Assembly (NCBI GenBank): GCA_947472115.1
Contig: CANIZU010000002.1
Location: 1 to 35,307 of the forward strand
Origin: Flavobacteriales bacterium
Lineage (GTDB): Bacteria; Bacteroidota; Bacteroidia; NS11-12g; UBA955
Direction: 5' to 3'
DNA: 35,307 bases
Below are positions 3,342 to 31,916 of the stretch, one piece after another (position 1 is the stretch's first letter; each line of letters begins with the position of its first letter). Made by a program: the position numbers and the translations under genes. The notes under the pieces were generated by a model. That model was not told where the DNA came from. It saw only the letters and a program-made list of their open reading frames with translations, and did no database searches.

Positions 3342-3343
3342 TA

Positions 3344-4279
3344 ATGAATCTGATGAAAACTATATTTAAATATATCATGCAGAGGGGGTCTGTGTTGTTG
3401 TTGTTATGGGCGGCTATTTCGCTACTGGGACTGGGAAGTTGTATTGAAAAGGACGCAAAAATTCCGCCTCCAGAGTATAGTAAACGAACGTCAATTATTT
3501 GTTATTTATCGCCCCGGAATGCCAATGTGAGCGTGCAATTGGGTTTTACCGTACCCTATTTTGGTGTGCAAAGTGATACCATTTCTTATTACTCCGATGC
3601 CAAAGTCACGGTTTCGGATTTAACCGCGGGAACTTCTGTGGTTTTGCCATTCAATAAAGTAGATTTTGTATACCGGGTTGGCAAAAATAAGATGCCTATT
3701 TTGAACGATCACCAATACCGAGTGGAAGTAGTTTTGGCCGATGGTAGGAGTTATACAGCCTCCACTCAAATTCCTCCTAAGTTGGGTCCAACGGATCTTC
3801 AATTGGGGAAATTTAGTGTGGGAAAGCTCGAGCAAAACCAGCAATTTGGTCAGCAAGTTTCTGTCAATGTGGAATTGAAAACGGGCAATACTCGCAAAGG
3901 ATTTTACTATTCGCCTCAGTTTGATATTGTACTTGAAGATGGCCAAGGAGATTTTTACGGCAACACGATGTATTTCAAAGGCTCGGGAGTGGAAGAGGGT
4001 TTGGGTTCAGACACATTGAGATTCTTCTATCAAGAGAGAATGTGGTTGCAGGGTGGCGGTGGAATGGGTGGTTCTACTGCGATTGATCCGATGAAGTTCA
4101 ATGGCGCTGAGGGCACTTTTTGGGTTTTCGATAAAGGTTACGCGGAGTCGTATAATAAGTTTTTTGAAGACACCGGAAATCCTTTTGCGGAGCCAATCTT
4201 ACTATACTCCAATTGGAGCAATGGTGCCGTGGGTACTTTGGGTTCCTTTGATTGGGAAGAAATGACAATCACGCCTTAG
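3344..4279 (+). CDS. DUF4249-like lipoprotein, the usual partner of this TBDR class
   Basis: 311-aa ORF starting 2 nt after the TBDR stop (TAATAATG). It has a lipobox-like LGLGSC. Size, position and early beta-rich segment fit the DUF4249 proteins that follow CarboxypepD_reg TBDRs in Bacteroidota. The family call is from memory of that synteny. Confidence 0.5.
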   Translation: MNLMKTIFKYIMQRGSVLLLLWAAISLLGLGSCIEKDAKIPPPEYSKRTSIICYLSPRNANVSVQLGFTVPYFGVQSDTISYYSDAKVTVSDLTAGTSVVLPFNKVDFVYRVGKNKMPILNDHQYRVEVVLADGRSYTASTQIPPKLGPTDLQLGKFSVGKLEQNQQFGQQVSVNVELKTGNTRKGFYYSPQFDIVLEDGQGDFYGNTMYFKGSGVEEGLGSDTLRFFYQERMWLQGGGGMGGSTAIDPMKFNGAEGTFWVFDKGYAESYNKFFEDTGNPFAEPILLYSNWSNGAVGTLGSFDWEEMTITP

Positions 4280-7695: not shown

Positions 7696-8634
7696 TTAAA
7701 CGCTAAACTGCAGTTGTCCGAGCATTAATCCGCCCCAACCTGCTTGATTTACCAAAACAGTTTTTCCTTTTGCATTTTTCACCGCGGTGGCCTCGGTCAG
7801 GAAAGTGTGGGTATGTCCACCCAAAATGGCCGCGATACCGTGGGTTTGTTGTCCCAATTTGATATCGTCGATTTTATCGCTATCGTATTCATAACCAAGG
7901 TGTGAAAGCACAAAAACCAAATCACATTGGTCGATGTTATGGAGTTCATCGACAGTTTTTTGTACGGCATTTACGGGATCGTTGTAAGTTAAACCGGGAA
8001 TCAATCGCTCCATGATGAGATTGTCCGGGTTAATTCCCACTCCTGTAATACCGATTCGTTTATGATTGATTTCGACAACAATTTTTTGTTTCACGAAGGG
8101 GGAAAGGGAGGTGTTTTTGAGGGAGTAGTTACAATTCACCATTGGGATTTTCGGGTGAAGGGCCAACATGTTGGCAAGGTGATCGATGCCATTGTCGAAA
8201 TCGTGGTTTCCCATGGTTGTTGCATGATATCCCATTTTTGTCATCCATGCATATTCAACCGATCCACCAAAATAATTAAAATAGGGCGTTCCTTGAAACA
8301 CATCTCCTGAATCTAGAAGTAGGTTATTGGGATTGGCTTCTCGTTGTTTTTGTATCAGCGTTGTCAATTGCTGAATTCCCCCTTTTCCGGCTTGGGGGTG
8401 GTTGGCGGGGAAGGCTTCGATGCGCGAATGAAAATCGTTCGTGTGCAGCAGATTAAGTAGGAAGGATTCGTTGTTTTTTGGCGGAGTATTTAGGGTTTCT
8501 AGCCAGTGGGTCATTCCGTTTAATGGGCTTTTGGCGGCGGCAGCGGCCGCGGCCGCTAGTAGCAAAAATTTCTTCCGCCCCACCTGTTCAAACTTTCCCG
8601 GAAACAAGGGTTTATCCTGTGAATCAATATTCAT
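7696..8634 (-). CDS. Metallophosphoesterase, equivalent to the N-terminal catalytic domain of UshA-type 5'-nucleotidase, with a Tat-like signal
   Basis: 312-aa ORF with calcineurin-like phosphoesterase motifs: LLHTNDFHS, DSGDVFQGT, MGNHDFD, GGHTH. The N-terminus GRKKFLLLAAAAAAAAK resembles a twin-arginine leader but has RK instead of RR. It overlaps the upstream gene in an ATGA start/stop overlap at 8631-8634. Confidence 0.8.
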   Translation of the reverse strand: MNIDSQDKPLFPGKFEQVGRKKFLLLAAAAAAAAKSPLNGMTHWLETLNTPPKNNESFLLNLLHTNDFHSRIEAFPANHPQAGKGGIQQLTTLIQKQREANPNNLLLDSGDVFQGTPYFNYFGGSVEYAWMTKMGYHATTMGNHDFDNGIDHLANMLALHPKIPMVNCNYSLKNTSLSPFVKQKIVVEINHKRIGITGVGINPDNLIMERLIPGLTYNDPVNAVQKTVDELHNIDQCDLVFVLSHLGYEYDSDKIDDIKLGQQTHGIAAILGGHTHTFLTEATAVKNAKGKTVLVNQAGWGGLMLGQLQFSV

Positions 8635-9653
8635 TTTGAATCCTCCGCTTTAGTTGGGTAAACCCGTAGTTGTTTTCTGGGTGCTACCCATTGAAACGCA
8701 TCAAACTCGCTCTTCAAACCATTGGCAATCGCATCCCTCAATTGAATCCCGGTATAAAGCGTCTGCTTTGCCCCCTTTAACATCGTAAATCCATCGCCAC
8801 CCATCGACATATAAGAACTTGTGGCAACCAAATAATCCCGTCGGCTATCAAAAGGCAGCTGACTTCCATTCATCAGGATTTGATTATTGCCCTGGTTCAT
8901 CCCATCTGAGGATTGACCGTTGGATGATACCCCTGAACCTGGTTTTTGTTCCTGCGACCCATTCAGAAAAAGCAGATCGGCAGGCGTTGAAATAATCTTG
9001 CTGTTGATTTTTGCTTTCACAACGCGATTTTTTGCAGGTTTGTCGGCCTTTTCAAATTCTAACAATAAACCCGAAACAGGCGTCCCTGTTAACTGAGCGA
9101 TATATCTCAACAAGCTGTCTGTAGCCCCACCACTCAACTGCAATATCACCAACTCATTGTCGAATGGCATCACCTCAAAAACATTTCTCATCGTAACCGC
9201 CCCCGGAAACAGACCAGCGCGCAATCCACCGTTGTTTGCTACCGCGAAATGACATGGGATTCCAATGTTTTCCATGCTATATTGAGTGGCTGTTAGAAGC
9301 ATGTAATCCGCCACCAACCGACCTAAATTTCCTGTGTAAAATGTATTGTAAAATGGCGAGTCGATTTGTGCCAATCTTGTCGATAAGCTTTGATTCAACG
9401 AATCTGAATATGGCTTAATGAAATTTGCTATCTCCGCATTTTCCGCAATGCTGGAATCCACGGAAATATTGGGTGTGGGTATGTATGAGATTGCGGCTCG
9501 TTGCGACGGTGATTCGTTAACAGAGTGCCTTGTGCCATGTTGGAATTGTTTGCCGCTGCCGCATCCTGTTGAATACGCGGACGTCCAAACGAAAATCAAT
9601 ATCGAAACATATCGAAAAACGTGTTTTTGGGCGATGCGATTTGATATATTCAT
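8631..9653 (-). CDS. 5'-nucleotidase C-terminal (substrate-binding) domain lipoprotein
   Basis: 340-aa ORF with lipoprotein signal ...AYSTGC. The 5_nucleotid_C-like core is GNLGRLVADYML ... VANNGGLRAGLFPGAVTMRNVFEVMPFDNELVILQLSG. It contains an internal low-complexity insert (QEQKPGSGVSSNGQSSDGMNQGNNQ). Confidence 0.75.
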   Translation of the reverse strand: MNISNRIAQKHVFRYVSILIFVWTSAYSTGCGSGKQFQHGTRHSVNESPSQRAAISYIPTPNISVDSSIAENAEIANFIKPYSDSLNQSLSTRLAQIDSPFYNTFYTGNLGRLVADYMLLTATQYSMENIGIPCHFAVANNGGLRAGLFPGAVTMRNVFEVMPFDNELVILQLSGGATDSLLRYIAQLTGTPVSGLLLEFEKADKPAKNRVVKAKINSKIISTPADLLFLNGSQEQKPGSGVSSNGQSSDGMNQGNNQILMNGSQLPFDSRRDYLVATSSYMSMGGDGFTMLKGAKQTLYTGIQLRDAIANGLKSEFDAFQWVAPRKQLRVYPTKAEDSK

Positions 9654-9758
9654 TTAAAACACAAAATTGCACGAAAATTGGTGTTTTTCTACATTAAATT
9701 ACTGATAATTAAGGCCTCAAAACGACCAACTTGTCGATTTTTTTGGCATTTTTGCAAC
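9654..9758. promoter_or_regulatory. Divergent promoter region between the 5'-nucleotidase pair and the LTD/TBDR/nuclease array
   Basis: 105-nt AT-rich gap between divergent start codons. Near-consensus -7-like boxes CAnnTTTG face each gene: CAATTTTG on the minus strand at 9662-9669 and CATTTTTG on the plus strand at 9747-9754. Each lies 4-8 nt from its ATG. Confidence 0.3.
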
Positions 9759-10712
9759 ATGATAAAAAAGATTGTCATTTTTTGCATTACTACAATGCTT
9801 TCTGGCTTCGTTTCAGCCCAATGCAATGAGTTGTTTATTTCAGAATACGTAGAAGGTTCTAGGAACAACAAAGCCCTGGAAATCTACAATCCCACCGATA
9901 AACCCGTGGATCTTTCGCAGTATCGTGTAACGCGCTGGCAAAATGGTTCTGCCGCTTGGACAGCCCAAATGTCGGATGCCCTTTCTGGTACCCTTCAGCC
10001 GAAAGACGTCGTTGTGCTTGTCTTAGATCGACGCGATACTACCAAAATTGGTCAAGATACCCCTGTGGTTCTCTCTTTGCGTTTGAAAGCCGATCTTTTC
10101 TTGAGTAAGGATTACAATACCAGTTTTAGTATGAGTTTTAATGGGGATGATGCAATGAGTTTGGATAAGTTAAATACAACCACCAGCAAATTTGTCCCTG
10201 TAGATATTTTTGGAAAAATTGGTGAGCGTCCAAGTCCAGCCTGGAGCGACAAAGCACCATACACCGGAACCGGCACGTGGTATACTTTGGATAAAACGCT
10301 CATTCGTAAAGATAGCGTGATGTCCGGAGTGACGAAGAACCCATTGGAATTTAATCCTACGAAAGAATGGGAATTAAATCCCCGCGATCAATTCGATTCT
10401 TTGGGTTATCACAAGTGTTTGTGTGAAAAAACTGCTTCTACCAAATTAATTCAAAAACATAAAGTTGTGTTGTTCCCGAATCCCACCCAAAATGCGAACA
10501 ACGGCATCGTTACGGCCATTACCGATTTTGTACCGGTTGCTATGATTTGTAAAAATATGCAGGGTGCGGATGTTGCCCTTCATTATTCGATCAACTCATC
10601 CTCAATGATGGTTCAAACCCAAATTGCAACCGCAGAATTGGCGGCAGGGGTTTACACGTTGGAATTCATTTCTGCAAGCGGAGAACGTGTTTCAACTAGA
10701 TTGATCAAATAA
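9759..10712 (+). CDS. Secreted lamin-tail-domain (LTD) protein with type A T9SS C-terminal sorting domain
   Basis: The ORF track starts at a TTG at 9678. The first ATG, at 9759, begins a clean signal peptide MIKKIVIFCITTMLSGFVSAQ. CNELFISEYVEGSRNNKALEIYNPTDKPVDLSQY matches the LTD signature seen at N-termini of ExeM/NucH-type extracellular nucleases. The C-terminus VVLFPNPTQN...GVYTLEFISASGERVSTRLIK is Por_Secre_tail-like. Confidence 0.7.
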   Translation: MIKKIVIFCITTMLSGFVSAQCNELFISEYVEGSRNNKALEIYNPTDKPVDLSQYRVTRWQNGSAAWTAQMSDALSGTLQPKDVVVLVLDRRDTTKIGQDTPVVLSLRLKADLFLSKDYNTSFSMSFNGDDAMSLDKLNTTTSKFVPVDIFGKIGERPSPAWSDKAPYTGTGTWYTLDKTLIRKDSVMSGVTKNPLEFNPTKEWELNPRDQFDSLGYHKCLCEKTASTKLIQKHKVVLFPNPTQNANNGIVTAITDFVPVAMICKNMQGADVALHYSINSSSMMVQTQIATAELAAGVYTLEFISASGERVSTRLIK

Positions 10713-13420
10713 TGCGTAGAGGATTCTTACTGTTTTTTGTTCTTTTGGCGATGGGTACCCTCAGTGCCCAAGTGACCGTGAAAGGTCGTGCCGTGGATGC
10801 AATTAGCGGAGAATTTTTAGAAAATGTTCTCATTTCCACCAGAAATCAATCGGCTCAAACAGCCAAAGATGGAACGTTTAGTTTGGTTCTTCCAATGGGA
10901 GAATATCTCTTGGTTGCTAAGTTAGACGGGTACGATAACGACTCGATTTTTATTCAGGCCGATCGCAATCTGATCACCGACATCAATTTTAAGTTGGAAA
11001 ATTTGAGCGCCAGTATGCAGGCGGTTCAGATTACCACTTCGATTGCCAAGAATAGAAAAACGCCTGTTGCCTATTCCAATGTAACCGGAAAAGACATCGC
11101 AGAGCGTTTGGGAAGTCAGGATTTGCCCTTGTTGTTAAATCAGATGCCAGGTGTTTATGCCACCTCTCAAGGAGGCGGATCTGGCGACGCCAGAATCAGT
11201 ATTCGTGGATTCAGTCAGCGCAATATCGCGGTAATGGTGGATGGTATCCCCGTGAACGATATGGAAAACGGTCAGGTGTATTGGAGCAATTGGTTTGGTT
11301 TGGGAAGCGTTACAGCGTTAACCCAAGTGCAGCGTGGTTTGGGCTCGAGCAGAATTGCCAATCCAGCGGTGGGTGGAACCATGAATATCATCACCAAAGG
11401 ACTTTCACAACAAGCAAAATTGGAGGCCAGTGTTGAATTTGGTGATTCAAAATACGAACAGTTTGGTGTGAATTATAGCAGCGGTAGATTGAAGGGTGAT
11501 TGGGGCGTGATGATGAGTTTCACGAAACGTCAGAGTGCCGGCTATGTAGATTACTTGTTTGATGACATGTATTCCTATTTTGGAAAGGCAGAAAAGCAAT
11601 GGAAAACCAAATCGCATGGATCGCACACGCTAAGTATCGCCGTAATGGGCGCACCGCAAAGTCATGGACAGCGTAGCTATAGAGCTCGTTTGAGTATGTA
11701 CGATAAGGCGTTGGCAGAGAAATTGGGCGTGGATACTGTTTTGCCAAGAATGGCTTACAATCAAGGGCGCAAATACAATCAGCATTGGGGGAATCTCAAT
11801 CAGGCCACAGTGAGCGACGACAAAACCGATACGATTTGGGGTAGGTCTCAAGTAGTAAACGAGCGAGTAAATATGTTTCACAAACCCCAAATGTATGTCA
11901 AGCATGACTGGGCCCTATCGAAGAAAACCTTAATCACATCTACCGTTTATGCGTCCTATGGAAGAGGCGGTGGAGTGAGTTCAAATAGTAGCCTAAAAAT
12001 CCCTCAAATTCCCCAAAATTATGGACAGTTCGATTTTCAGAGTACCTATTTCTTAAATACATCGGGCAGCGACTTTACGACGCCGATTGATCCAAAATAT
12101 TCACTCACAGAGAACAAGTCGACAGGTATTTTGCAACGCGCGGTAAACAATCACAATTGGTATGGTTTGTTGAGTACGATGCAGCATAAAATCAACAATT
12201 TTTGGTCGTTTACGGGCGGAATCGATTTGAGAACTTACCATGGAAGGCATTACCGTGAGGGTTATGATTTGTTAGGCGGCGACTATTTTATCCCTTCTCA
12301 AGCGGAGAAAAATCCGAATTACGATGCCAAGCATATGTATCGTGCGGGTGATGTTTTTGGTTACAACAACGACGGTTTGGTTCGATGGGCGGGTGCTTTT
12401 GGTGAGATGGAGTACAGCAAGAATCGGACAACGTGGTTTTTGAATACGAGCGCATCAAATACATGGTTAAAACGCATCGATTATTTTAAGTTGGATAAGG
12501 ATAAAAACTATGGCCAGCCTACGGCTTGGGTGCAGCGCAAAGGCGTGACTTTGAAAACTGGTTTGAACCACAACATCTCAAGGAAATTCAATCTTTTTGG
12601 GAATGTGGGTTATTTGAATCGTCCAACGCGGTTTAGCAATGTATTCGACAATCGAAATGTGCAGGTCAAGGACATTCGAAACGAAAAAGTATATGCGTTG
12701 GAAGGCGGATCAGGATATAAGTCGAAGCGATTGGCCTTGAACTTTAACGCATATTACACTTTGTGGAAGAACAAACCGGTGGATTTCCTTTCTACTTTTA
12801 CAGATTTAGACGGCAATAATTACAGCTTTAATATCAATGGTTTGGGGGCAAGGCACATGGGTGCGGAGCTTCAGGCATCGTTTAAGGCGGGTGATGGTAT
12901 TACTTTGGAAGGCAGTTGGTCTTTGGGCGATTGGATTTGGAATTCAGGCAGCGAAGTGATTGTTAGAAATGATTTGGGTGATTCCATTGCCAAGGTCGAT
13001 TTTGATGCCACTGGCGTGCATGTGGGTGATGCCGCTCAACGACAGCAAGCGTATTTGTTGCGCTGGGAACCAACCTATTTAAAAGGGGCTTATTTTACAC
13101 TTCAATACATTCATTTCGCCAAGCACTATGCGGATTTTGACCCTACATCGTTGACGGGAAAATACAAAGGACAAGAGTCGTTTTTGCTGCCAACCTATTG
13201 GTACATGAATGTGACGGGGGGATATAAGTTGGATCTGAAAAATGGCATTAAAATGCAGTTTTACGGAACGGTAAATAACATTACAAATAATCTTTACATC
13301 ACAGACGGCCAGCATCGTAATGTGGACGACAATCCGATTAATACGTTTAACCCCAAGAATTTGGAAGTCTATGTATCTTCAGGATTGAGATTTACCACAG
13401 GCGTTCGAATTAGCTTTTAA
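10712..13420 (+). CDS. TonB-dependent outer-membrane receptor (CarboxypepD_reg + plug + barrel) with no adjacent SusD
   Basis: 902-aa ORF whose ATG overlaps the upstream stop (TAATG). It has signal peptide ...GTLSAQ and an N-terminal VTVKGRAVDAISGEFLENVLI. The plug motif is DLPLLLNQMPGVYATSQGGGSGDARISIRGFSQRNIAVMVDGIPVND. The terminal beta-strand is ...GLRFTTGVRISF. Confidence 0.85.
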   Translation: MRRGFLLFFVLLAMGTLSAQVTVKGRAVDAISGEFLENVLISTRNQSAQTAKDGTFSLVLPMGEYLLVAKLDGYDNDSIFIQADRNLITDINFKLENLSASMQAVQITTSIAKNRKTPVAYSNVTGKDIAERLGSQDLPLLLNQMPGVYATSQGGGSGDARISIRGFSQRNIAVMVDGIPVNDMENGQVYWSNWFGLGSVTALTQVQRGLGSSRIANPAVGGTMNIITKGLSQQAKLEASVEFGDSKYEQFGVNYSSGRLKGDWGVMMSFTKRQSAGYVDYLFDDMYSYFGKAEKQWKTKSHGSHTLSIAVMGAPQSHGQRSYRARLSMYDKALAEKLGVDTVLPRMAYNQGRKYNQHWGNLNQATVSDDKTDTIWGRSQVVNERVNMFHKPQMYVKHDWALSKKTLITSTVYASYGRGGGVSSNSSLKIPQIPQNYGQFDFQSTYFLNTSGSDFTTPIDPKYSLTENKSTGILQRAVNNHNWYGLLSTMQHKINNFWSFTGGIDLRTYHGRHYREGYDLLGGDYFIPSQAEKNPNYDAKHMYRAGDVFGYNNDGLVRWAGAFGEMEYSKNRTTWFLNTSASNTWLKRIDYFKLDKDKNYGQPTAWVQRKGVTLKTGLNHNISRKFNLFGNVGYLNRPTRFSNVFDNRNVQVKDIRNEKVYALEGGSGYKSKRLALNFNAYYTLWKNKPVDFLSTFTDLDGNNYSFNINGLGARHMGAELQASFKAGDGITLEGSWSLGDWIWNSGSEVIVRNDLGDSIAKVDFDATGVHVGDAAQRQQAYLLRWEPTYLKGAYFTLQYIHFAKHYADFDPTSLTGKYKGQESFLLPTYWYMNVTGGYKLDLKNGIKMQFYGTVNNITNNLYITDGQHRNVDDNPINTFNPKNLEVYVSSGLRFTTGVRISF

Positions 13421-13429
13421 CAAAATAAA

Positions 13430-15652
13430 ATGAAAAACAAGAACATATTTGGTTTGATGCTTGCGATGGTAGCGGGCATTTCCTCGTTGATGGCCCAGGC
13501 CACATTGCCAGCATTTTGGAATTGTAATGATCCAGCATCGGTGCCTTCAGGTTGGACATTGAACCAGGGAACCACAGGGACATTTGTTTATACATCTGCT
13601 TCGCTCGTAAAGAGCACACCTGCGGCAATCCGTTTGGATGTAACCGGTGAGTGGATGAAGGTGAATTATTCAGGTTCTGCGGATACGGTTTGGTATTATA
13701 TTTCAGGAACCGGCGCTTCTGGCGTGACCGTTTGGAAAGGTACCTGCAACGTTGAAGAGAGTACGGATGGAACTACTTGGAAATCTGTACGTCAATATGT
13801 AGACGGAGATATGCCAATGGGAATCACACAGCATTTTACTCAGGTGAGCAGTGCTGCAAAATTTGTTCGGTTTATTTTAACCACGAAAGTTTCGGGTTAT
13901 AATTTGGCGATCGACGATGTAAATGTTCGTCCAGGAAAAGGCGGTGCAAAACCAGAGTTACAGGTATTGTACAGTGGCAAAATCCAGTTGAACAAAGCGG
14001 AGATTCGTCCTGGTACAACCACTCCTTTTGCGGTGGTAGTGAAAAACAATAGCACAGCGGGAGATTTAACCGTCTCTAAAATTCAATTTTCTGGTAGCAA
14101 TGCAGCTAGCTTTAGCACCAAACAAACCACACCATTTACGGTGAAGGCGGGAGAACAACTTTCGATTGATGTGGATGTTGCCAGTGGTGCACCTGCGGGT
14201 TCGTTGAGATCGACCATGAGTTTTAGCAGCAACGACAGTAACAATTTGCCTTTTGATTTGAATATTTTTGGAATTTCTGGTAAGTATGGAACAGAGCCTA
14301 CGGCATCGACCACATTCACGATGGTTAGCAATTTGGCTTGGAAAACTACAATCAATGCCAAGGGTGTTGCGGCGGATGGATATTTGGTGATGGTGAGTAA
14401 AAATCCCATTACGGAAGTGCCGGTGGATGGAACGATTTATCAGCGCGGACAAATCATCAATGGGGTTCGTATCATGCATATGGGCGCTGCAGGCGATATC
14501 GTTTTGGATAACGTTTGGGCCGATACAAAGTACTATATCAAGGCGTATTCTTTTGGTGGGTACGATGCATTTGTTAACTATTTTTCGGGTGCTTCGGCAG
14601 ATTTAACATACACCAGTGTGGGTTTAAGTGAAGGTAGCTACTATGGCGGATTGACATCCTCTGATACTTCTTTGGTGAGTAAGATTCGCAACGTGGTACG
14701 TCCGCACTTCCAAGTGTATTATTCCAATTTTGGCAGTACGATGGCGATGAATTTTGAGGCAAGGGATACCACCGAAGGCAAGAAAATCATCAATTGCTTT
14801 TACACTGGCTATCCGTATGTGTTTACCCCTCCTTTCTTTTTTGATGTCAACGATCCAAACTATTTGAGTCGCGAACACTCTTATCCTTTCTCTTGGATGG
14901 GCGAGGCGAGTCAGGACAGTGCCAATTACAGCGATTTGTATTTGTTATACGCAGTGCATCAAAACAAGGGAAATGCGGTAAGAAGCAACTATCCGATGAA
15001 CAACTTAAAAACGGTGACCACTACTTTTTGGGGTGGTAAATTTGGTACAGATTCTACGGGCGGATTTGCATACGAGCCCAGAGATTTTGCCAAAGGTTCT
15101 ATGGCGCGTTCCAACTTTTATATTTGTGCTACCTACAACCGTCCGGGAGTTCCTTTTACTATTCCTACTGCCAATACTTTTTTGGGAATGGATCAGGATC
15201 AGAACGTATTGAAGCGTTGGAACAAGCAATTTCCTCCCAATGGTTGGGAAAAGGCGAGGGCCGAATATGTGGCTTCGATTCAGAAAAACCGCAATCCATT
15301 CATTGATCACCCAGATTGGGCTTGTTATATCGATTTTTCAAAGATGAAATACGTTGCCAATGGCGTTTCATGCGGTGCGGGACCTGTCACTTCAACGTCG
15401 GTTAAACCAGCGATTGTGGGTATTGTGGCTTATCCTAACCCATCGAACAAGACAATGACGGTTGATTTGGCTGCTTTCAAGGGCGAATCAGCGGTGGTGA
15501 CCTTGGTGGATTATTTTGAGCGGACAGTGTTTGAGCAATCGGATGTACGTGAAAGCCTTTCTTTGGATGTAAGTCGTTTCGCAGCAGGAAGCTATTTGTT
15601 GTTGGTGCGCAGCGCGAGCAAGCAAGCGGCAACGGCGGTGATTGTGAAATAA
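13430..15652 (+). CDS. Multidomain secreted endonuclease I family nuclease with type A T9SS C-terminal domain
   Basis: 740-aa ORF with signal peptide ...SLMAQA. Endonuclease I motifs are SREHSYPFSW (the catalytic EH), NKGNAVRSNYP, KGSMARSNFYICATY and IQKNRNPFIDHPDWA. Upstream lie a discoidin/CBM-like module and an Ig-like module (ELQVLYSG...LTVSKIQFSGSNAASFS). The C-terminus VAYPNPSNKTMTVDL...GSYLLLVRS...AVIVK is Por_Secre_tail-like. Confidence 0.8.
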   Translation: MKNKNIFGLMLAMVAGISSLMAQATLPAFWNCNDPASVPSGWTLNQGTTGTFVYTSASLVKSTPAAIRLDVTGEWMKVNYSGSADTVWYYISGTGASGVTVWKGTCNVEESTDGTTWKSVRQYVDGDMPMGITQHFTQVSSAAKFVRFILTTKVSGYNLAIDDVNVRPGKGGAKPELQVLYSGKIQLNKAEIRPGTTTPFAVVVKNNSTAGDLTVSKIQFSGSNAASFSTKQTTPFTVKAGEQLSIDVDVASGAPAGSLRSTMSFSSNDSNNLPFDLNIFGISGKYGTEPTASTTFTMVSNLAWKTTINAKGVAADGYLVMVSKNPITEVPVDGTIYQRGQIINGVRIMHMGAAGDIVLDNVWADTKYYIKAYSFGGYDAFVNYFSGASADLTYTSVGLSEGSYYGGLTSSDTSLVSKIRNVVRPHFQVYYSNFGSTMAMNFEARDTTEGKKIINCFYTGYPYVFTPPFFFDVNDPNYLSREHSYPFSWMGEASQDSANYSDLYLLYAVHQNKGNAVRSNYPMNNLKTVTTTFWGGKFGTDSTGGFAYEPRDFAKGSMARSNFYICATYNRPGVPFTIPTANTFLGMDQDQNVLKRWNKQFPPNGWEKARAEYVASIQKNRNPFIDHPDWACYIDFSKMKYVANGVSCGAGPVTSTSVKPAIVGIVAYPNPSNKTMTVDLAAFKGESAVVTLVDYFERTVFEQSDVRESLSLDVSRFAAGSYLLLVRSASKQAATAVIVK

Positions 15653-16506
15653 TGGATTTTCGATCTCAAGAAATTATAGAATTGATTGATCGCTGTTTTG
15701 CTGAGGATATCGGCAGCGGCGATCACAGTAGTTTGGCTTCCATTCCGCAAGGGACGGTGGGTGAATCTCGGTTGCTTTTGAAGCAGGATGGGGTGATTGC
15801 CGGACTTGAATTGGGCGAGGTAATTTTACGTCGTTTAGACCCCAATTTAGAATGGGTTGCGATGGCCAAAGACGGCGATTATTTGCATTCTGGTACCCAG
15901 TTGGCATCGGCTAGTGGGAATGTGCATGCTTTGCTTGCAGGAGAGCGTTTGATGCTCAATTTCATGCAACGGTTGTCGGGTGTGGCAACCCAGACGCACA
16001 ATGCTGTGGAGATTGTAAGGGGCACGGGCGCTACGATTTTGGATACTCGAAAAACTACGCCAGGACTTAGGTTGTTAGAGAAATGGGCGGTGACTATGGG
16101 GGGCGGTAAAAATCATCGCATCGGACTTTACGATATGGTGATGCTAAAGGACAACCACAATGATTCGGCGGGCGGGATTACTGCGGCGGTGAATCGTACC
16201 AAAGCCTATTTATTGGAAAATGGCTTGGACCTAGGCATCGAAGTGGAAACCCGAAACATGGATGAAGTCAATGAGGTTTTGGCCGTGGGTGGCGTTCAGC
16301 GAATTATGTTGGACAATTTTTCGCCGTCGGCATGTGTTGAGGCGGTGAAAGTGATTGCTGACAGATGCGAAACCGAAGCATCAGGGGGCATCAATTTGGG
16401 GAATTTGCGCAGTTATGCAGAGACTGGAGTGGATTTTATTTCTTTGGGCTCTTTAACGCACAGCGTATCTTCGTTAGATATTAGTTTTAAAACCAAAGTT
16501 ATATGA
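15652..16506 (+). CDS. nadC: Nicotinate-nucleotide (quinolinate) phosphoribosyltransferase
   Basis: 284-aa ORF with LAGERLMLNFMQRLSGVAT, TRKTTPGLRLLEKWAV, GGGKNHRIGLYDMVMLKDNH and a C-terminal SGGINL. Its ATG overlaps the nuclease stop (TAATG). Confidence 0.9.
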   Translation: MDFRSQEIIELIDRCFAEDIGSGDHSSLASIPQGTVGESRLLLKQDGVIAGLELGEVILRRLDPNLEWVAMAKDGDYLHSGTQLASASGNVHALLAGERLMLNFMQRLSGVATQTHNAVEIVRGTGATILDTRKTTPGLRLLEKWAVTMGGGKNHRIGLYDMVMLKDNHNDSAGGITAAVNRTKAYLLENGLDLGIEVETRNMDEVNEVLAVGGVQRIMLDNFSPSACVEAVKVIADRCETEASGGINLGNLRSYAETGVDFISLGSLTHSVSSLDISFKTKVI

Positions 16507-18818: not shown

Positions 18819-18879
18819 CTTATTTTTTTGATAATAATGGTACTTGAAACTGTCTTATATTTACCAAAATAAAATTTAT

Positions 18880-21800
18880 ATGTTTGCTGAATTTAGAATT
18901 TTCTTTTCTTTTCTGTTTGGATTAATAGGAGTTTTAGCAAATGCACAACCCAAAGCAGTTCAAAATAATTCAACTCAACCGGCATATTTTATTCCTGATG
19001 AAGGACAATTCAAAGACCCCAAACCGTATTTGTATTTTGTTCAATTAGAAGAAAACGAAATTCAAATTAAGTCCGACGGAATAACTTGGGCTACAAATGT
19101 TTTGGTGCCTAGTAAGCCTTTATTGGGTGGATTAATGACTAAAATAAAAAAATCAAATCAGTCAGAAGAATCAGAGGAAGATAAACCTGCCTTTAAAAAT
19201 CAACAGTCGAAAATTGATTTACATTTTATTGGTTGCAATACCTCTTGCGTTATTATGGAATCAAATAAATCGCCCTTTTATTACTCCTATGGCGATAGAA
19301 CTAATCCTGTATATGGATTTAAGGAATTAAAATTTGTGGATTTTTATCCCAATATTGATTTGATTTATACTGTTGAGGATCAAAATAAGAGTTTTAAATT
19401 TTCTTTTTTATTAAAGTCAGGGGCTGATGTTTCAGCGATTCAATATGAGTATAGGCACAACGGACAGTTGATGCCTGTTTTGGATAAGAACGAATTGACA
19501 ATTGCGTCTTCCTCTTTTAAATTAAGGGAGTATGGCTTATCAATTGGTCCTTTGAATAAGCAAAAGAGCGATGATAGTCTAGCTGTAAAATATCGAATCT
19601 CGAATGGTGTCATTGGATATGCAATTACTGGAAATTCACAGAATTCAGAATTACTCATTGATCCATTCGTAATAAAACTATTGGATTTAACCGGCTCCAT
19701 TGTTGCAGTAAATAATCTAGAAAATATCCTGATTAAGACAGATGTAGATGATTTAGGTAATATTTATGTTTGGGGAGGCGGGGTTTATCCCAATCAACCC
19801 AAGCTAGCGAAGTACACACCCTCTGGTAATTTGATCTGGATTTTCATGGGTGAAATTCCTTCCATGAATTGGTATGCAACATCATACAAAGCTGGTAATC
19901 CTTGGTTATATTATCTTGGCACCTTTGTGTTAGCAAAAGAAACGGGGTATACATTTATTTGCCCGGGCTGTGCATCTGCAAATTTCACAATTATTGGATT
20001 AGATGATTCTGGTTTTGCAACAGGGTTTTCAAATGATACCAAAAATAGTTATTCCACTGAAGGATGGGAAATGTTGTTGAACTGCAAAAATGATATTTTG
20101 TATTATTTCGGTGGGGATTGGGGTTACACGAGTTATTATAAAATGAAACTAGATACCTTGCATCCTAGGATACAAAATTTTGGATTGTTCGGAATGTCAG
20201 CAGCGGCTGTTGATATTACTTCGGCTGTAATGGATGATTCAGGTGATGTTTATTTATTACTAAATGGGGGGTCTAGTAACCCGAAATTAAGGAGTTATGA
20301 ATGGAACAATGTGATTGTTAAAATGCATAATGATACCAGTAGAATTTTTTCTAGAAAAACAGGCTTTGATATCGCGGAGCGAGGTACGCATCCTCTATTT
20401 CCATGGAAAGCCGGTTCAAGAATGGCTTACGGCAATTATGGATTATCCAATAGCAGCAATGATTTAGCAATAGACGATCGTTATGTTTATTATTTTGATG
20501 GCAGGTATATGGCTGCATTCACTAAAGATAGTGGCTTTAGGGTGGGTGCGGATTCCATCAAAGCCTATGGACAATATACCCAAGCGGGCATTGCTGCAGA
20601 TTTAAAACAACATGTATTCTTAGGCGGCGACAGTGCTAAGTTGCATTGTTACACATTCAAAGATTCTATCTTTTCCCTGGATACCATTTTGTATTTAAAT
20701 CCCAAATCCAATCCCAAATCCAATCAGAAAATTCATGATGTAGTCTACTTGACAGCCACCCAAGAAATTGTGGTGATTGGCGACAGTCTTTTGGCAAAAG
20801 TAGAATCCCCCTACAAAACCATCGACTCAAATTATGTGTTCTCATTGTCCTCGCAACGTTTTTGTGGAGATTATGTGGTGGCAAAAATTCTAACCACCCC
20901 TTCCAAGAGCATGTCGTTCCAGTGGCTAGACAGCACAACTGGCAAATTGGTAAGACACGTAGATATCATCAATACAGACTCAGACACTTTGCCCAATCCT
21001 ATAGAAGGCCATGTTTATGTAGTGAAATTAGGAGATGCAAAAAAATGTGAGCGATGGTTATTTCAACATGTTTTTAAGGCCAAAATCCTGAAACCGGACA
21101 CGATAATTCAAAAGTTGTGCGAAGGAGATACCTTTATCGTTTCCAAAAATACGATTACACGAGATTCCATATTTAGCGTAAAACTTAAGACCGCCCATCA
21201 ATGTGATTCGCTGTTGAATTATCAAATAACGTTCTTAAAGAAATCCTCGACCAATCTAGATTTCAATATTTGCAAAGGAGATTTTATTCAAATAGGAAAA
21301 TCCAAATATTTCAGCGCAGGCAATTTCTCTGACACCTTCTCTGCCGCCAATGGCTGCGATTCAATTGTCCATAGTCAAATCAAGGTAAAACCAGATACAA
21401 CGGTGACGCACAATTTCTTGATTTGCAAGAAAGATACCATCGTTGTTGGCAATAGCAAATACTACCAAAGTGGGACCTACCTGGATACATTCATTCGATT
21501 TAATGGTTGTGACTCGGTGATTCAGACGAAAATCACCCTATTGGCCGACACGCTAGTTTATTCAACCGCCAAAATCTGTCTAGGCGATTCCTTCAATTTC
21601 GGAGGGTTGTATGTTAAATCACCGGGAAAATACTCGCATCAGTTTGTGCGCAGCAATGGCTGTGATTCCCTTGTGAATTTAACGCTGCAGGCATTGACAG
21701 ACACCACGGTTTTGTTAAATGCAAAGATCTGCAATGGCGAAACGATAACAATTGGCGCACAGGCATTCAAAAACGCGGGAAGTTATTCAATTCCGCTTCA

Positions 21801-22542: not shown

Positions 22543-22569
22543 ACTTACCCAAAATTAACTTTCTGTACT

Positions 22570-25905: not shown

Positions 25906-25936
25906 GTTTTTATTTTATGCTTGTTCTACAAATATT

Positions 25937-26326
25937 ATGAAAAATAAGTTCTTGATTTTTATTTTATTACTTTTTGTTCAAGTATGCAGCGCGCAGACAT
26001 TCGAAATCGAAGAACAAAATATGATAGTTCCTTGTACAACGGGTATTTGGCAAGTGAAGGATTCTTCAGGCTCAATACTTGTTTTCGGTTCATTTAAATC
26101 TGGAATCACACCTAGTAATGGTACATGTCATTCTGGAATTCCTCACAGTGTAGTTTTCAATAGTACAGTTTGCACACCTAGTATGGTGACAGTAATTGTT
26201 GGTGGTCCATCTGGTATTGCTGATTGTACATGTGCATCGACCACCTCAACACAGAAAGTTCAATATATTGCAAATGCCAAATCACCGACAGGTAATTGTA
26301 CTATGATGCTGTCAATTATTTATTAA
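25937..26326 (+). CDS. Small secreted Cys-rich protein of unknown function (129 aa)
   Basis: The ORF track start at 25826 would overlap the 1111-aa gene start. The internal ATG at 25937 gives a canonical signal peptide MKNKFLIFILLLFVQVCSAQ. The mature ~109 aa contain 6 Cys after the signal peptide and are Ser/Thr/Gly rich. I recognise no family. Confidence 0.55.
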   Translation: MKNKFLIFILLLFVQVCSAQTFEIEEQNMIVPCTTGIWQVKDSSGSILVFGSFKSGITPSNGTCHSGIPHSVVFNSTVCTPSMVTVIVGGPSGIADCTCASTTSTQKVQYIANAKSPTGNCTMMLSIIY

Positions 26327-26483
26327 CTCGACGTTAATCGCAAACGCAAAATTTTGGGTGATCTAAAATTTTTGTGTGACAATATTGCGAAATTAAACGT
26401 TCCTTTCGGGAAGAAGCCCTGCACTTCGCTCGCAGGCCTGTATACTTTGTGCCTTGTGATGTTTATGAACTCAAGAAATACCA

Positions 26484-26690
26484 TTAACGTTTCAGATAAA
26501 CATCCACCGAGATGTTTTTGTGAAGACCGTCACTGTATTCAAAAACGATAAAATAGATGCCTTCGGGAAGCAGGGTGTTGTTTTGAGATTGGCTTGAAAT
26601 GTTGTTGGCAGAGGCAACATTCCCCCTAACGGATACATTGCTTTTGCCATCCCACGCGATGTTTTGTTGGGCATTGGATTCAAAGACTAG
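26484..26690 (-). pseudogene. Truncated type B T9SS CTD fragment (C-terminal ~68 codons only) of a third paralog
   Basis: It translates to ...VFESNAQQNIAWDG...LLPEGIYFIVFEYSDGLHKNISVDVYLKR*. The stretch 26650-26689 is nearly identical to the 1105-aa gene CTD (about 28706-28745). Homology stops abruptly at 26690, where the rlmD 3' relic begins. The only start is a junction-created ATG. Confidence 0.8.
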
Positions 26691-28512: not shown

Positions 28513-28552
28513 ATTACTATGTGACGCTTAAAATGCAATTAGTTGCAAAGAA

Positions 28553-31870: not shown

Positions 31871-31916
31871 TGCATCGTAGACTAAATTAGTAAAATACTA
31901 AGGTAGTTCTATTGAT

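What the first reader, a model, noticed from the sequence alone, without database searches (positions are those of the whole stretch)
7696..15652. Putative extracellular DNA/nucleotide scavenging locus built around a SusD-less TonB-dependent receptor and two T9SS-exported proteins
Seen in the sequence: a divergent promoter region (9654-9758) separates the split 5'-nucleotidase from three tightly packed genes. These are an LTD protein with T9SS CTD, a TBDR whose ATG overlaps the LTD stop (TAATG), and, 9 nt later, a 740-aa endonuclease I. The nuclease has an intact EH catalytic motif, extra binding-type modules and a T9SS CTD. Established knowledge: in Vibrio and Shewanella, extracellular nucleases (Dns/Xds, ExeM/ExeS) together with UshA-type phosphatases allow growth on extracellular DNA as a P source, and LTDs are typical N-terminal modules of ExeM/NucH nucleases. 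Inference: this is a PUL-like pathway for nucleic acid. It would involve surface capture (LTD), cleavage (endonuclease I), TonB-powered import of oligonucleotides or nucleotides, and periplasmic dephosphorylation. To my knowledge a TBDR dedicated to nucleic-acid fragments has not been characterised in Bacteroidota.
Basis: partly seen in the sequence, partly recalled or inferred. Interest (0 to 1): 0.65.

Follow-up and report, generated by a model that had tools for sequence, protein, structure and literature searches.

The report
Conserved DNA-scavenging gene cluster in Bacteroidota
A freshwater Bacteroidota genome carries a widely conserved three-gene unit (a secreted lamin-tail-domain protein, an outer-membrane TonB-dependent transporter and a secreted DNA-cutting enzyme, often next to a periplasmic 5'-nucleotidase) that most likely harvests extracellular nucleic acids; it is an undescribed environmental variant of the DNA-utilisation loci reported in gut Bacteroides in 2025.

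Summary

The main new result is comparative. Among 80 species-level genomes with an orthologous TBDR, an LTD/T9SS protein lies directly upstream in 67 of 69 informative loci. A T9SS-exported nuclease is adjacent in 54 of 56, down to about 37% TBDR identity. The nuclease's catalytic domain is exchangeable: Endonuclease_1 in most loci, Nuc/NucT-type PLD in L051, L053, L080 and L082/L083, and both in L064. Six related nucleases (L025, L046, L051, L064, L080; L053 by clustering) carry DUF5689, the domain of the DNA-uptake partners DdbD and Riemerella RA0C_RS04920. The 5'-nucleotidase pair is linked in 17 of 33 fully informative loci, in two arrangements. Lake metatranscriptome contigs cross the TBDR-nuclease junction.

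So a PUL-like nucleic-acid scavenging route is well supported, though inferred. A DNA-dedicated TBDR system in Bacteroidota was published in 2025 (ddbABCDEF). No Pho box is evident. DNA capture by the LTD is untested, and its acidic pI gives no support. Verdict: a new variant of a known kind, of moderate to high interest.

The parts
7696..8634 (-). Catalytic (metallophosphoesterase, UshA N-domain-like) subunit of a two-gene 5'-nucleotidase. The N-terminus carries a degenerate Tat-type signal (GRKKFLL).
   Evidence: Metallophos 8e-16; UshA, NadN and CpdB-type NCBIfam hits around 1e-23. Orthologues carry clear twin-arginine motifs such as SRRKFLK, NRRSFIRR and KRREFIQ. Starts 4 nt inside the upstream gene (ATGA overlap).
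8631..9653 (-). Substrate-binding (5_nucleotid_C) subunit of the split 5'-nucleotidase; predicted lipoprotein with no acidic surface-export motif after the Cys.
   Evidence: 5_nucleotid_C 1.3e-21. Lipobox ...YSTGC in the window and LxAC|S in orthologues. The two-gene order, C-domain first, is conserved in 32-37 loci.
9654..9758 (.). Divergent intergenic/promoter region. AAAATTG at 9663-9669 and 9674-9680 are -7-box-like elements (TAnnTTTG type). The T-rich element TTTTTTTGGCATTTTTGCA at 9738-9756 abuts the LTD ATG.
   Evidence: Sequence. Alignment of 20 orthologous upstream regions: one CAAA(A/T)TTG element about 75 nt upstream and the ATG-proximal element are conserved, while the duplicated 7-4-7 form occurs only in the closest strains. 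No Rfam family hit.
9759..10712 (+). Secreted lamin-tail-domain protein, 317 aa: signal peptide aa 1-20, expanded LTD beta-sandwich aa about 21-215, linker, T9SS type-A CTD aa about 236-317. It is the invariant partner of the TBDR.
   Evidence: LTD 7.5e-13. ExeM N-terminal region match 1.2e-16 over aa 18-219. TIGR04183 23.2 bits. AF2 model pLDDT 75.6 with lamin A/C Ig-fold among the matches. Present upstream of the TBDR in 67 of 69 informative loci.
10712..13420 (+). TonB-dependent transporter, 902 aa: signal peptide, CarboxypepD_reg-like N-terminal beta-sandwich (aa 20-97), TonB-box-like segment AVQITTS (aa 104-110, nt 11021-11041), plug, full beta-barrel. Not SusC/RagA type and has no SusD.
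   Evidence: Plug 1.3e-14 and CarbopepD_reg_2 2.2e-08; no TIGR04056 hit. AF2 pLDDT 84, pTM 0.79. Best PDB folds are PqqU, YncD, Fiu, FecA and FhuA, with no SusC-like in the top 50. Orthologues align end to end at 37-40% identity, whereas a paralogue in the same window aligns only over NTE plus plug.
13430..15652 (+). T9SS-exported modular endonuclease I, 740 aa: signal peptide; N-terminal jelly-roll-like module (aa about 23-172, weak F5/8-C hit); Ig-like choice-of-anchor-D module (aa about 190-271); fn3-like module (aa about 288-398); Endonuclease_1 catalytic domain (aa about 400-645, nt 14627-15364); T9SS CTD (aa 668-740).
   Evidence: Catalytic E482/H483, N515, E549, R560 and N620-R-N-P-F are conserved. 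52 of 54 complete neighbours of orthologous TBDRs have Endonuclease_1 and 53 of 54 have a T9SS CTD. Metatranscriptome contigs cover it and cross the junction with the TBDR.

Best explanation
This is a conserved outer-membrane module for harvesting extracellular nucleic acid, with an invariant core of the LTD protein and the TBDR.

Proposed mechanism, with the status of each step:
1. The LTD protein and the multi-domain endonuclease I are exported by Sec and then by the type IX secretion system. They are released or tethered to the cell surface through their type-A CTDs. This is inferred from the signals.
2. The nuclease, a Vvn/EndA-type Mg-dependent non-specific enzyme, cuts DNA (and probably RNA) near the surface into short 5'-phosphorylated fragments. 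Family membership and catalytic residues are shown; activity is inferred.
3. The LTD protein works with the nuclease and transporter on the same substrate, most likely holding the polymer or its fragments at the transporter. This rests on strict gene pairing and on LTD-nuclease fusions elsewhere. Binding itself is untested.
4. The classical-type TonB-dependent transporter imports nucleotides or short oligonucleotides into the periplasm. This is inferred from synteny only.
5. In this lineage a two-subunit 5'-nucleotidase (Tat-exported catalytic subunit plus lipoprotein cap subunit) removes phosphate in the periplasm. Phosphate and nucleosides then enter through transporters encoded elsewhere. 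Domains and signals are shown; the role is inferred.

The likely physiological purpose is P (also N, C or nucleoside) acquisition by planktonic freshwater and marine Bacteroidota.
For: - Synteny: LTD is upstream in 67 of 69 informative species-level loci, and a T9SS nuclease is adjacent in 54 of 56, down to 36-40% TBDR identity and across 14 lineage groups. All other neighbours are lineage-specific housekeeping genes.
- Non-orthologous replacement of the catalytic domain in the same slot: Endonuclease_1 or PLDc_2 of the Nuc/NucT clade, with L064 holding both and L051/L053 holding the PLD nuclease upstream.
- DUF5689, which the held literature mentions only for DNA-uptake or DNA-utilisation partners of TBDTs (PMC12478041, PMC8459023), is fused to the nuclease in L025, L046, L051, L064 and L080.
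- Rosetta-stone links: LTD is fused to nucleases in ExeM (the window LTD protein matches the ExeM N-terminus, 1.2e-16) and in F. johnsoniae EndA1/EndA2 (fn3+LTD+Endonuclease_1), which are induced by phosphate depletion (PMC8115612).
- The 5'-nucleotidase pair is linked in 17 of 33 fully informative loci in two different arrangements, including a tight five-gene co-directional cluster. Its Tat and lipoprotein signals place it in the periplasm.
- The nuclease active site is intact.
- The TBDR is a complete transporter with a TonB-box-like segment, and its fold is closest to small-ligand TBDTs.
- In-situ transcripts exist, and contigs span the TBDR-nuclease junction.
Against: - There is no direct evidence for the transported substrate. 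TBDT specificity cannot be read from sequence.
- The mature LTD domain is mildly acidic (median pI 5.5) and its model matches only generic Ig folds, so a DNA-binding role is unsupported.
- The locus encodes no periplasmic exonuclease or phosphodiesterase to turn oligonucleotides into the mononucleotides a 5'-nucleotidase needs.
- The 5'-nucleotidase is absent from the neighbourhood in about half of the loci.
- No Pho box or other regulatory signal for P limitation was found.
- B. thetaiotaomicron used DNA poorly as a sole C, N or P source despite its ddb locus (PMC12478041), so 'nutrition' need not be the pay-off.
- The RNA evidence consists of unstranded contigs from strains 90-95% identical and could include DNA carry-over.
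Confidence: 0.65

Rival explanations
1. This is a DNA-uptake apparatus for natural transformation. As proposed for Riemerella RA0C_RS04915/RS04920, the TBDR would be the outer-membrane conduit for transforming DNA, the LTD protein the surface DNA receptor, and the nuclease would trim or process incoming DNA.
For: The ddb locus and the Riemerella competence genes are related (PMC12478041). RA0C_RS04915 carries the same minimal annotation (CarboxypepD_reg-type TBDR) as this family. DUF5689 is present in nucleases next to orthologous TBDRs. The NucT-like PLD nucleases are named after a Helicobacter nuclease linked to competence (my own knowledge).
Against: No comEC, dprA, comF or HhH competence genes lie in the window or recur in the 84 loci. 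Linkage to a periplasmic 5'-nucleotidase points to catabolism. Endonuclease I enzymes are non-specific degraders, and the Vibrio homologue Dns antagonises transformation (established knowledge). The barrel fold resembles small-ligand TBDTs. A direct comparison with RA0C_RS04915 could not be made.
Confidence: 0.12
2. This is a general phosphodiester or organophosphate scavenging module, not one specific to nucleic acid. The secreted enzyme (EndoI or PLD) would release any phosphodiester-derived product, for example from phospholipid head groups or teichoic-acid-like polymers, and the TBDR would import small organophosphates, like the Pi-starvation-induced TBDTs of Flavobacterium.
For: The PLD superfamily includes phospholipases (one search lists cardiolipin hydrolase homologues). 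Flavobacterium induces several non-SusC TBDTs and phosphodiesterases under Pi depletion (PMC8115612). The TBDR fold resembles small-ligand importers such as PqqU.
Against: In 52 of 54 loci the enzyme is endonuclease I, a dedicated nuclease. The PLD variants match the Nuc/NucT nuclease models best, and four of them (L051, L080, L082, L064) were confirmed by scan to carry nucleic-acid-associated DUF5689, fn3 or both, with L053 and L083 placed in the same family by clustering only. The 5'-nucleotidase is nucleotide-specific.
Confidence: 0.1
3. The extracellular nuclease and LTD protein serve matrix or eDNA remodelling (biofilm dispersal, escape from DNA traps, surface cleaning for gliding). The TBDR would be functionally unrelated and merely share an operon.
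For: Extracellular nucleases including B. thetaiotaomicron BT3563, ExeM and Dns/Xds have documented biofilm roles (PMC8851478, PMC6085458, PMC6746945).
Against: Across 14 lineage groups the TBDR and LTD are the invariant pair, and the nuclease is the exchangeable part. That pattern is the opposite of what an incidental transporter would show. The carriers are mostly planktonic freshwater and marine MAGs.
Confidence: 0.08

Closest known systems
ddbABCDEF DNA-utilisation locus of Bacteroides thetaiotaomicron (Sharan et al., PNAS 2025, PMC12478041)
   Same: Both are PUL-like Bacteroidota loci that combine a non-SusD TonB-dependent transporter, an adjacent non-catalytic extracellular partner and secreted nucleases. 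DUF5689, the DdbD domain, occurs in the nucleases of several loci orthologous to the window's. The logic is the same: extracellular cleavage followed by TonB-powered import.
   Different: The partner here is an LTD protein, not a DUF5689 protein; there is no DUF5689 hit even at E<=10. The extracellular components are T9SS cargo with type-A CTDs, not SPII lipoproteins. There is a single nuclease of the endonuclease I (or PLD) type and no periplasmic nuclease equivalent to DdbB. A split periplasmic 5'-nucleotidase is linked in many lineages. The hosts are aerobic freshwater and marine Flavobacteriales, Saprospiraceae and Sphingobacteriales, not gut Bacteroidales. Homology of the TBDR to DdbC could not be tested.
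Riemerella anatipestifer natural-transformation genes RA0C_RS04915 (TBDR) and RA0C_RS04920 (DUF5689/DUF5017, choice-of-anchor J) (PMC8459023)
   Same: A TBDR annotated only by its CarboxypepD_reg-type domain is paired with an adjacent extracellular beta-rich protein implicated in handling DNA, with a nuclease gene nearby. The order is Flavobacteriales.
   Different: The demonstrated function there is transformation, and comEC lies a few genes away. Here there are no competence genes, a degradative endonuclease I and a 5'-nucleotidase. The partner domain differs (LTD, not DUF5689).
Phosphate-utilisation systems and Pi-starvation-induced EndA1/EndA2 nucleases of Flavobacterium johnsoniae (Lidbury et al., ISME J 2020/21, PMC8115612)
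   Same: They use the same building blocks: Endonuclease_1, LTD and fn3 in exported nucleases (Fjoh_4721 and Fjoh_4723), and non-SusC TBDTs induced by Pi depletion. They support a P-scavenging role for such enzymes in Bacteroidota.
   Different: In F. johnsoniae the LTD is fused to the nuclease and the nucleases are 'orphans'. The gene between them, Fjoh_4722, is a 21.7-kDa protein and not a TBDR. The described PUS loci use SusC/SusD-like PusCD pairs.
ExeM/NucH and Dns/Xds extracellular nucleases with UshA-type phosphatases in Shewanella and Vibrio
   Same: The route from extracellular nuclease through periplasmic 5'-nucleotidase to phosphate from eDNA is the same. The window's LTD protein is homologous to the N-terminal LTD region of ExeM (1.2e-16), and DUF5689 segments in related loci match the next part of the ExeM/NucH model. 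Dns belongs to the same endonuclease I family.
   Different: In those gammaproteobacteria no dedicated TBDR is part of the system, and the genes are not clustered in this way. Secretion is by T2SS or GlyGly-CTERM, not T9SS. The ExeM catalytic domain is of the EEP type.
Classical SusC/SusD polysaccharide utilisation loci
   Same: The overall strategy is shared: surface binding protein, surface hydrolase, TonB-dependent import, periplasmic finishing enzyme, all co-localised in one locus.
   Different: There is no SusD, no SusC/RagA signature and no CAZymes, and the barrel fold is closest to classical small-ligand TBDTs.

Membership tests
Endonuclease I (PF04231; Vvn / EndA / Dns) | Profile match above the curated threshold | tested here: met
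   85 bits against a cut-off of 25, E=8.8e-24, aa 479-628. A profile of the catalytic region hits Vvn 1oup at 2.3e-18.
Endonuclease I (PF04231; Vvn / EndA / Dns) | Catalytic Glu-His pair and Mg-binding Asn | tested here: met
   S480-R481-E482-H483: E482 is invariant and H483 nearly invariant in 54 homologs. N515 aligns with the Asn at chain position 109 of 1oup in the motif VNGDRSN; equating this with Vvn Asn127 is my own residue numbering.
Endonuclease I (PF04231; Vvn / EndA / Dns) | Nuclease activity on DNA/RNA | not testable with these tools
   Requires expression and assay.
ddb-type DNA-utilisation locus (PMC12478041) | TBDT homologous to DdbC (the authors used >50% identity and >75% coverage to one of four DdbC types) | not testable with these tools
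   DdbC (WP_008762511.1) and RA0C_RS04915 sequences cannot be retrieved by accession. The attempt to reach them through DUF5689 failed.
ddb-type DNA-utilisation locus (PMC12478041) | Adjacent DUF5689 (DdbD) partner of the TBDT | tested here: not met
   No DUF5689 hit in the LTD protein or the nuclease N-terminus at E<=10. DUF5689 is present only inside the nucleases of related loci L025, L046, L051, L064 and L080.
ddb-type DNA-utilisation locus (PMC12478041) | Secreted nuclease(s) encoded in the locus | tested here: met
   Endonuclease I with signal peptide and T9SS CTD.
ddb-type DNA-utilisation locus (PMC12478041) | Extracellular components exported as SPII lipoproteins; periplasmic SPI nuclease (DdbB) | tested here: not met
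   Both extracellular proteins carry T9SS type-A CTDs instead. No further nuclease lies in 7696-15652.
SusC/SusD-type PUL | SusC/RagA-family TBDT (TIGR04056) with an adjacent SusD-family lipoprotein | tested here: not met
   No SusC/RagA NCBIfam hit. No SusD Pfam family in any neighbouring gene. There are no SusC-type structures in the top 50 fold matches.
TonB-dependent transporter | Plug domain, 22-strand barrel, TonB box | tested here: met
   Plug 1.3e-14. The AF2 model has plug and barrel at pLDDT 84, with TMt 0.79-0.82 to PqqU and YncD. The conserved segment AVQIT(A/T)S lies before the plug. The strand number was not counted explicitly.
T9SS type-A cargo | C-terminal sorting domain (TIGR04183 / PF18962) plus N-terminal Sec signal | tested here: met
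   Nuclease: PF18962 32.5 bits (cut-off 27) and TIGR04183 24.2 (cut-off 23). LTD protein: TIGR04183 23.2 (cut-off 23) and PF18962 19.5, which is below its cut-off, though most of the listed homologs pass. The AF2 model shows a separate C-terminal beta-sandwich at aa 236-316.
T9SS type-A cargo | T9SS machinery present in the genome | not tested
   Core T9SS genes are not in the window. Three or four other CTD-bearing proteins (CHU_C type) are, which suggests a T9SS organism.
ExeM/NucH extracellular nuclease | LTD N-terminus, EEP-type nuclease domain and GlyGly-CTERM in one polypeptide | tested here: not met
   Only the N-terminal LTD region matches (59.9 bits against a cut-off of 1300). The catalytic domain here is endonuclease I on a separate protein.
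UshA-type 5'-nucleotidase | Metallophos N-domain and 5_nucleotid_C domain in one periplasmic polypeptide | tested here: not met
   Both domains are present but on two overlapping genes in inverted order (C-domain gene first), conserved in 32-37 loci. All whole-protein NCBIfam scores are far below their cut-offs. It works like UshA but is a distinct two-subunit form.
Pho regulon member | Pho box in the promoter or induction by Pi limitation | tested here: inconclusive
   No conserved 7-4-7 direct repeat beyond the closest strains. The Bacteroidota Pho box is not defined in the sources read. Induction is not testable here.

The most novel reading that the evidence does not exclude
The LTD protein and the TBDR form a previously unrecognised two-component outer-membrane importer. 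A T9SS-delivered, surface-anchored lamin-tail-domain protein, not a SusD- or DdbD-type lipoprotein, would act as the extracellular substrate-binding partner of a classical-type TonB-dependent transporter that imports oligonucleotides. The nuclease would be a plug-in module, either EndoI or PLD. This would be the environmental counterpart of DdbCD and a main route by which abundant freshwater and marine Bacteroidota turn over dissolved DNA and its phosphorus.
Probability: 0.3. Interest if true: 0.75.

Novelty: new variant of a known kind. Interest (0 to 1): 0.58.

Why it matters
Dissolved and particulate extracellular DNA is a large pool of organic phosphorus and nitrogen in lakes, oceans and sediments. 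Bacteroidota are repeatedly named as its degraders (PMC8289736, PMC11495043), but how the products cross their outer membrane has been shown only for gut Bacteroides (ddb, 2025).

This locus gives a concrete, widely distributed candidate for environmental lineages. At least 285 species-level genomes encode a relative of the TBDR. The candidate has a clear, testable gene set and at least one cultured carrier (the isolate behind CP034120.1).

It also shows a modular design principle: an invariant transporter and LTD pair, with an exchangeable nuclease catalytic domain and exchangeable binding modules. It connects three bodies of work that have been treated separately: Vibrio/Shewanella eDNA nutrition (ExeM, Dns, UshA), Flavobacterium Pho-regulon nucleases, and the Bacteroides/Riemerella DNA-uptake TBDTs.

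If the LTD protein proves to be a T9SS-delivered partner of a TBDT, that would add a new class of transporter 'lid' or accessory.

Tried and rejected
1. Direct comparison of the window's TBDR with DdbC or RA0C_RS04915.
2. Reaching DdbD-like proteins by searching with the full-length DUF5689 domain of L046. Only 4 hits came back, and their contexts (L085-L088) have no TBDR. This was a dead end.
3. The Pho-box idea. AAAATTG-N4-AAAATTG at 9663-9680 has the 7-4-7 geometry of a PhoB site, but it is confined to the closest strains, while more distant orthologous promoters keep a single -7-box-like copy. Rejected as evidence for PhoB control.
4. A riboswitch or structured leader. There were no Rfam hits in the window at gathering thresholds and nothing meaningful in 9400-10000 at E<=1.
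5. The sigma-70 promoter and terminator scan found no enrichment over shuffles. It is not informative for Bacteroidota.
6. The LTD protein as an OB/HIN-like DNA binder comparable to DdbD. The AF2 model gives only generic Ig-fold matches, and the domain is acidic.
8. Whether a TBDR lies between the Pi-induced EndA1 and EndA2 genes of F. johnsoniae. Fjoh_4722 is a 21.7-kDa uncharacterised protein, so the triad layout is not present there.
9. Apparent exceptions to the triad. Most were contig ends. L051 and L053 have the PLD nuclease upstream. The true exceptions are L029, L066, L052 and L069.
10. An NAD-salvage reading, based on nadC being translationally coupled to the nuclease and on NadN-like hits of the 5'-nucleotidase. 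nadC linkage is confined to one lineage group, so this is not a property of the module.

Full report
**1. What is there**

The window is from an uncultured freshwater Bacteroidota (Flavobacteriales-like) population. The closest public contigs are lake and river MAGs, 96-97% identical in the TBDR protein, and lake metagenomes hold 99% of the locus's sampled words.

Their domain content agrees:
- 7696-8634(-): a metallophosphoesterase, the 5'-nucleotidase N-domain.
- 8631-9653(-): a 5_nucleotid_C protein.
- 9759-10712(+): a lamin-tail-domain (LTD) protein ending in a T9SS type-A C-terminal domain.
- 10712-13420(+): a 902-aa TonB-dependent receptor with a CarboxypepD_reg-like N-terminal domain and a plug.
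- 13430-15652(+): a 740-aa protein with an Endonuclease_1 domain (85 bits against a cut-off of 25) and a T9SS CTD.

The junctions are TAATG (10710-14), a 9-nt spacer (13421-29), and a second TAATG that couples the nuclease to nadC (15650-54). Flanking genes are housekeeping: rluD, nadC, a thioredoxin-like protein and rumA.

**2. The components in more detail**

*Nuclease.* The nuclease has an intact active site. S480-R481-E482-H483, N515, E549, R560 and N620-R-N-P-F are invariant or nearly so in 54 homologs. A profile of the catalytic region aligns to Vvn (1oup) at 2.3e-18, with N515 opposite the Mg-binding Asn. Upstream of the catalytic domain are three beta-rich modules: a weak F5/8-C-like module, a choice-of-anchor-D/ASH-type Ig module, and an fn3-like module.

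*TBDR.* The TBDR model is confident (pLDDT 84, pTM 0.79). It shows an N-terminal beta-sandwich, a plug and a complete barrel. Its best structural neighbours are classical small-ligand transporters (PqqU, YncD, Fiu, FecA, FhuA), and no SusC-type structure appears in the top 50. There is no SusC/RagA signature and no SusD gene.

*LTD protein.* The LTD protein is one expanded beta-sandwich (aa about 21-215) plus the CTD. The sandwich is homologous to the N-terminal LTD region of the Shewanella nuclease ExeM (1.2e-16). Fold search gives only generic Ig folds, including lamin A/C. The domain is mildly acidic (median pI 5.5 over 50 homologs).

*5'-nucleotidase.* This is a conserved two-subunit form, not a broken gene. 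The C-domain gene comes first and encodes a lipoprotein with no acidic surface-export motif. The catalytic gene follows and carries a twin-arginine signal in orthologues (SRRKFLK and similar; degenerate GRKKFLL in the window). Both signals indicate a periplasmic location.

**3. Comparative genomics: the decisive evidence**

A scan of one genome per GTDB species found 285 genomes encoding a relative of the TBDR, and the best 80 loci were retrieved. Orthologues align end to end even at 37-40% identity (587 bits for L044). A second TBDR in the same window aligns only over the N-terminal domain and plug (49 bits). The family is therefore well defined.

Counting only loci with enough flanking sequence:
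- An LTD/T9SS gene lies immediately upstream in 67 of 69.
- An endonuclease I gene lies immediately downstream in 51 of 56.

Of the five apparent exceptions:
- L080 has a PLDc_2 protein in the same slot.
- L051 and L053 have that PLD protein immediately upstream of the LTD gene.
- L029 (a sodium:solute symporter in the slot) and L066 lack a nuclease.

Marine TARA relatives (L082, L083) also have the PLD form, and L064 has both types. The PLD proteins match the Nuc/NucT/Zucchini nuclease clade and carry T9SS CTDs.

Across 54 complete neighbours, 52 have Endonuclease_1, 2 have PLDc_2, 53 have a T9SS CTD and 4 have DUF5689. DUF5689 was also found in L051.

A clustering of all 824 ORFs in the loci shows that only the TBDR and the LTD protein recur in all 14 lineage groups. 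The nuclease cluster recurs in 6 groups (more when the domain-shuffled forms are counted). The two 5'-nucleotidase genes recur in 2 large groups. Everything else is lineage-specific housekeeping.

The 5'-nucleotidase pair is linked in 17 of 33 fully informative loci:
- Divergently upstream, as in the window, in 7.
- Co-directionally downstream, forming a five-gene cluster with 0-45-nt gaps in Fluviicola/Crocinitomicaceae, in 10.

Retention of this linkage through a rearrangement, together with replacement of the nuclease's catalytic domain in situ, argues strongly that these genes act on one substrate: nucleic acid.

**4. Expression and regulation**

Lake metatranscriptomes contain contigs 90-95% identical to the locus. 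These cover the 5'-nucleotidase genes, the LTD 5' end, most of the TBDR and the nuclease. Contigs cross the TBDR-nuclease junction (X5 13180-13839; X17 13403-13893; X16 13078-15900) and the nuclease-nadC junction.

This evidence is moderate. The contigs are unstranded, come from related strains, and may include DNA carry-over.

Footprinting of the region upstream of the LTD gene in 20 loci shows a conserved CAAA(A/T)TTG element about 75 nt upstream, which resembles the Bacteroidota -7 box TAnnTTTG. It also shows a conserved TTTTTTGnGATTTTTGCA element abutting the ATG. The 7-4-7 repeat that could pass for a Pho box is confined to the closest strains. No Rfam family matches.

**5. Relation to what is known**

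- Sharan et al. (PNAS 2025, PMC12478041) showed that ddbABCDEF of B. thetaiotaomicron is required for depletion of exogenous DNA. It encodes three nucleases, the TBDT DdbC, the DUF5689 protein DdbD that is predicted to cap it, and DdbE. The locus is related to RA0C_RS04915/RS04920, which are essential for natural transformation in Riemerella (PMC8459023).
- Lidbury et al. (PMC8115612) showed that F. johnsoniae induces two fn3+LTD+Endonuclease_1 nucleases and several non-SusC TBDTs under phosphate depletion.
- Wasmund et al. (PMC8289736) and the activated-sludge secretome study (PMC11495043) highlight Bacteroidota as carriers of extracellular nucleases and periplasmic nucleotidases.

None of these, nor any other paper found in seven full-text searches, describes an LTD-TBDR-nuclease unit with T9SS-exported partners.

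DUF5689 appears in the held literature only in the Riemerella and ddb studies. Its presence inside the nucleases of six related loci is therefore a specific link between the two systems. These DUF5689 segments and the window's LTD protein both match successive N-terminal parts of the ExeM/NucH models. The extracellular proteins here thus look like ExeM/NucH-type modules redistributed over two genes, with a different catalytic domain.

**6. Most likely mechanism and its weak points**

The best reading (confidence about 0.65) has four steps:
1. T9SS exports the LTD protein and the nuclease.
2. DNA/RNA is cleaved at or near the surface.
3. The TBDR imports nucleotides or short oligonucleotides.
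4. In this lineage the split 5'-nucleotidase dephosphorylates them in the periplasm.

*Shown:* gene content, signals, catalytic residues, transporter integrity, conservation, modular replacement, and in-situ transcription.

*Inferred:* the transported ligand, the role of the LTD protein, surface anchoring, and regulation by phosphate.

*Weak points:*
- The LTD domain is acidic.
- The locus encodes no periplasmic step from oligonucleotide to mononucleotide.
- The 5'-nucleotidase is absent from half the loci.
- B. thetaiotaomicron gained little growth from DNA despite its ddb locus.

*Rivals:* a transformation apparatus (0.12), broader phosphodiester scavenging (0.10), and matrix remodelling with an unrelated transporter (0.08).

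**7. Verdict**

The locus is best classed as a new variant of a known kind: a T9SS/LTD-type DNA-utilisation module of environmental Bacteroidota. It works like the ddb locus, but it fails the one ddb membership criterion that could be tested (an adjacent DUF5689 partner) and could not be tested on the other (DdbC homology).

Noticed in passing
window 939-4279 (+), after thyA at 59-868: A second TonB-dependent receptor (800 aa, Plug 9.2e-10) is followed 2 nt later by a DUF4249 protein (311 aa). This is another SusD-less TBDR-plus-partner pair. It is conserved in the 8 closest loci. Its substrate is unknown.
   Followed up: partly
window 15650-16506: The nuclease stop overlaps the nadC start (TAATG), and metatranscriptome contigs cross this junction. 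The nadC linkage is confined to one lineage group (13 loci), so it looks like local operon capture. The 5'-nucleotidase also gives NadN-like hits, but a link to NAD metabolism was not pursued.
   Followed up: partly
window 7696-9653 (-) and 32-37 related loci: The 5'-nucleotidase is a conserved two-subunit enzyme whose subunits use different export routes: the catalytic subunit uses Tat and the C-domain subunit is a lipoprotein. The gene order is inverted relative to UshA. In the window the twin-arginine motif is degenerate (GRKKFLL against SRRKFLK in relatives). Whether export still works in this strain is open.
   Followed up: partly
window 9738-9756: A T-rich element, TTTTTTTGGCATTTTTGCA, directly abuts the LTD start codon. 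It is conserved down to relatives with 64% TBDR identity. It could be a promoter for a near-leaderless mRNA, a translation-initiation element typical of Bacteroidota, or an operator. Unresolved.
   Followed up: partly
L044 = CP034120.1, 2704846-2723572: A complete genome labelled Glaciecola amylolytica THG-3.7 (a gammaproteobacterial name) carries the five-gene LTD-TBDR-EndoI-5NT_C-MPE cluster with T9SS CTDs. The cluster is organised as in the Fluviicola MAG loci L041 and L048. The record is probably mislabelled, and it points to a cultured Bacteroidota carrier usable for genetics.
   Followed up: partly
L009, L013, L027, L028, L034, L072 (record titles): Several MAG records that hold this Bacteroidota locus carry implausible organism labels: uncultured Bifidobacterium, Chryseobacterium gleum, Chitinophaga pinensis, uncultured Akkermansia. 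These are likely binning or labelling artefacts in the public records.
   Followed up: no
L046 6809-17622: This is an expanded version of the locus: LTD protein, TBDR, a 142-aa lipocalin-like protein, a 1194-aa nuclease (DUF5689 + choice-of-anchor D + Endonuclease_1 + SprB repeats + CTD), and then a second 919-aa T9SS protein with Ig-like repeats and another LTD.
   Followed up: partly
L029 2458-12905: This is one of two true exceptions. LTD-TBDR is followed by a 701-aa sodium:solute symporter in place of a nuclease, and a response regulator with a PglZ (alkaline-phosphatase-like) domain lies two genes upstream. It may hint at the inner-membrane step or at regulation.
   Followed up: no
window 18844-33936: A run of very large predicted T9SS cargo proteins with type-B CHU_C C-terminal domains: 22570-25905(-) and 28553-31870(-), both with DUF7948 and PKD, and 32113-33936(+). 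There is also a 1232-aa ORF at 18844-22542 and a 552-aa ORF (26854-28512, -) with no Pfam hit. GC content drops to 34-39% in parts of this region.
   Followed up: no
L051 10740-12318 and L053 6205-7733: In the Sphingobacteriales loci the slot downstream of the TBDR holds a 261-272-aa protein with no Pfam hit, followed by a papain-like Peptidase_C70 protein. The PLD+DUF5689 nuclease sits upstream of the LTD gene.
   Followed up: partly
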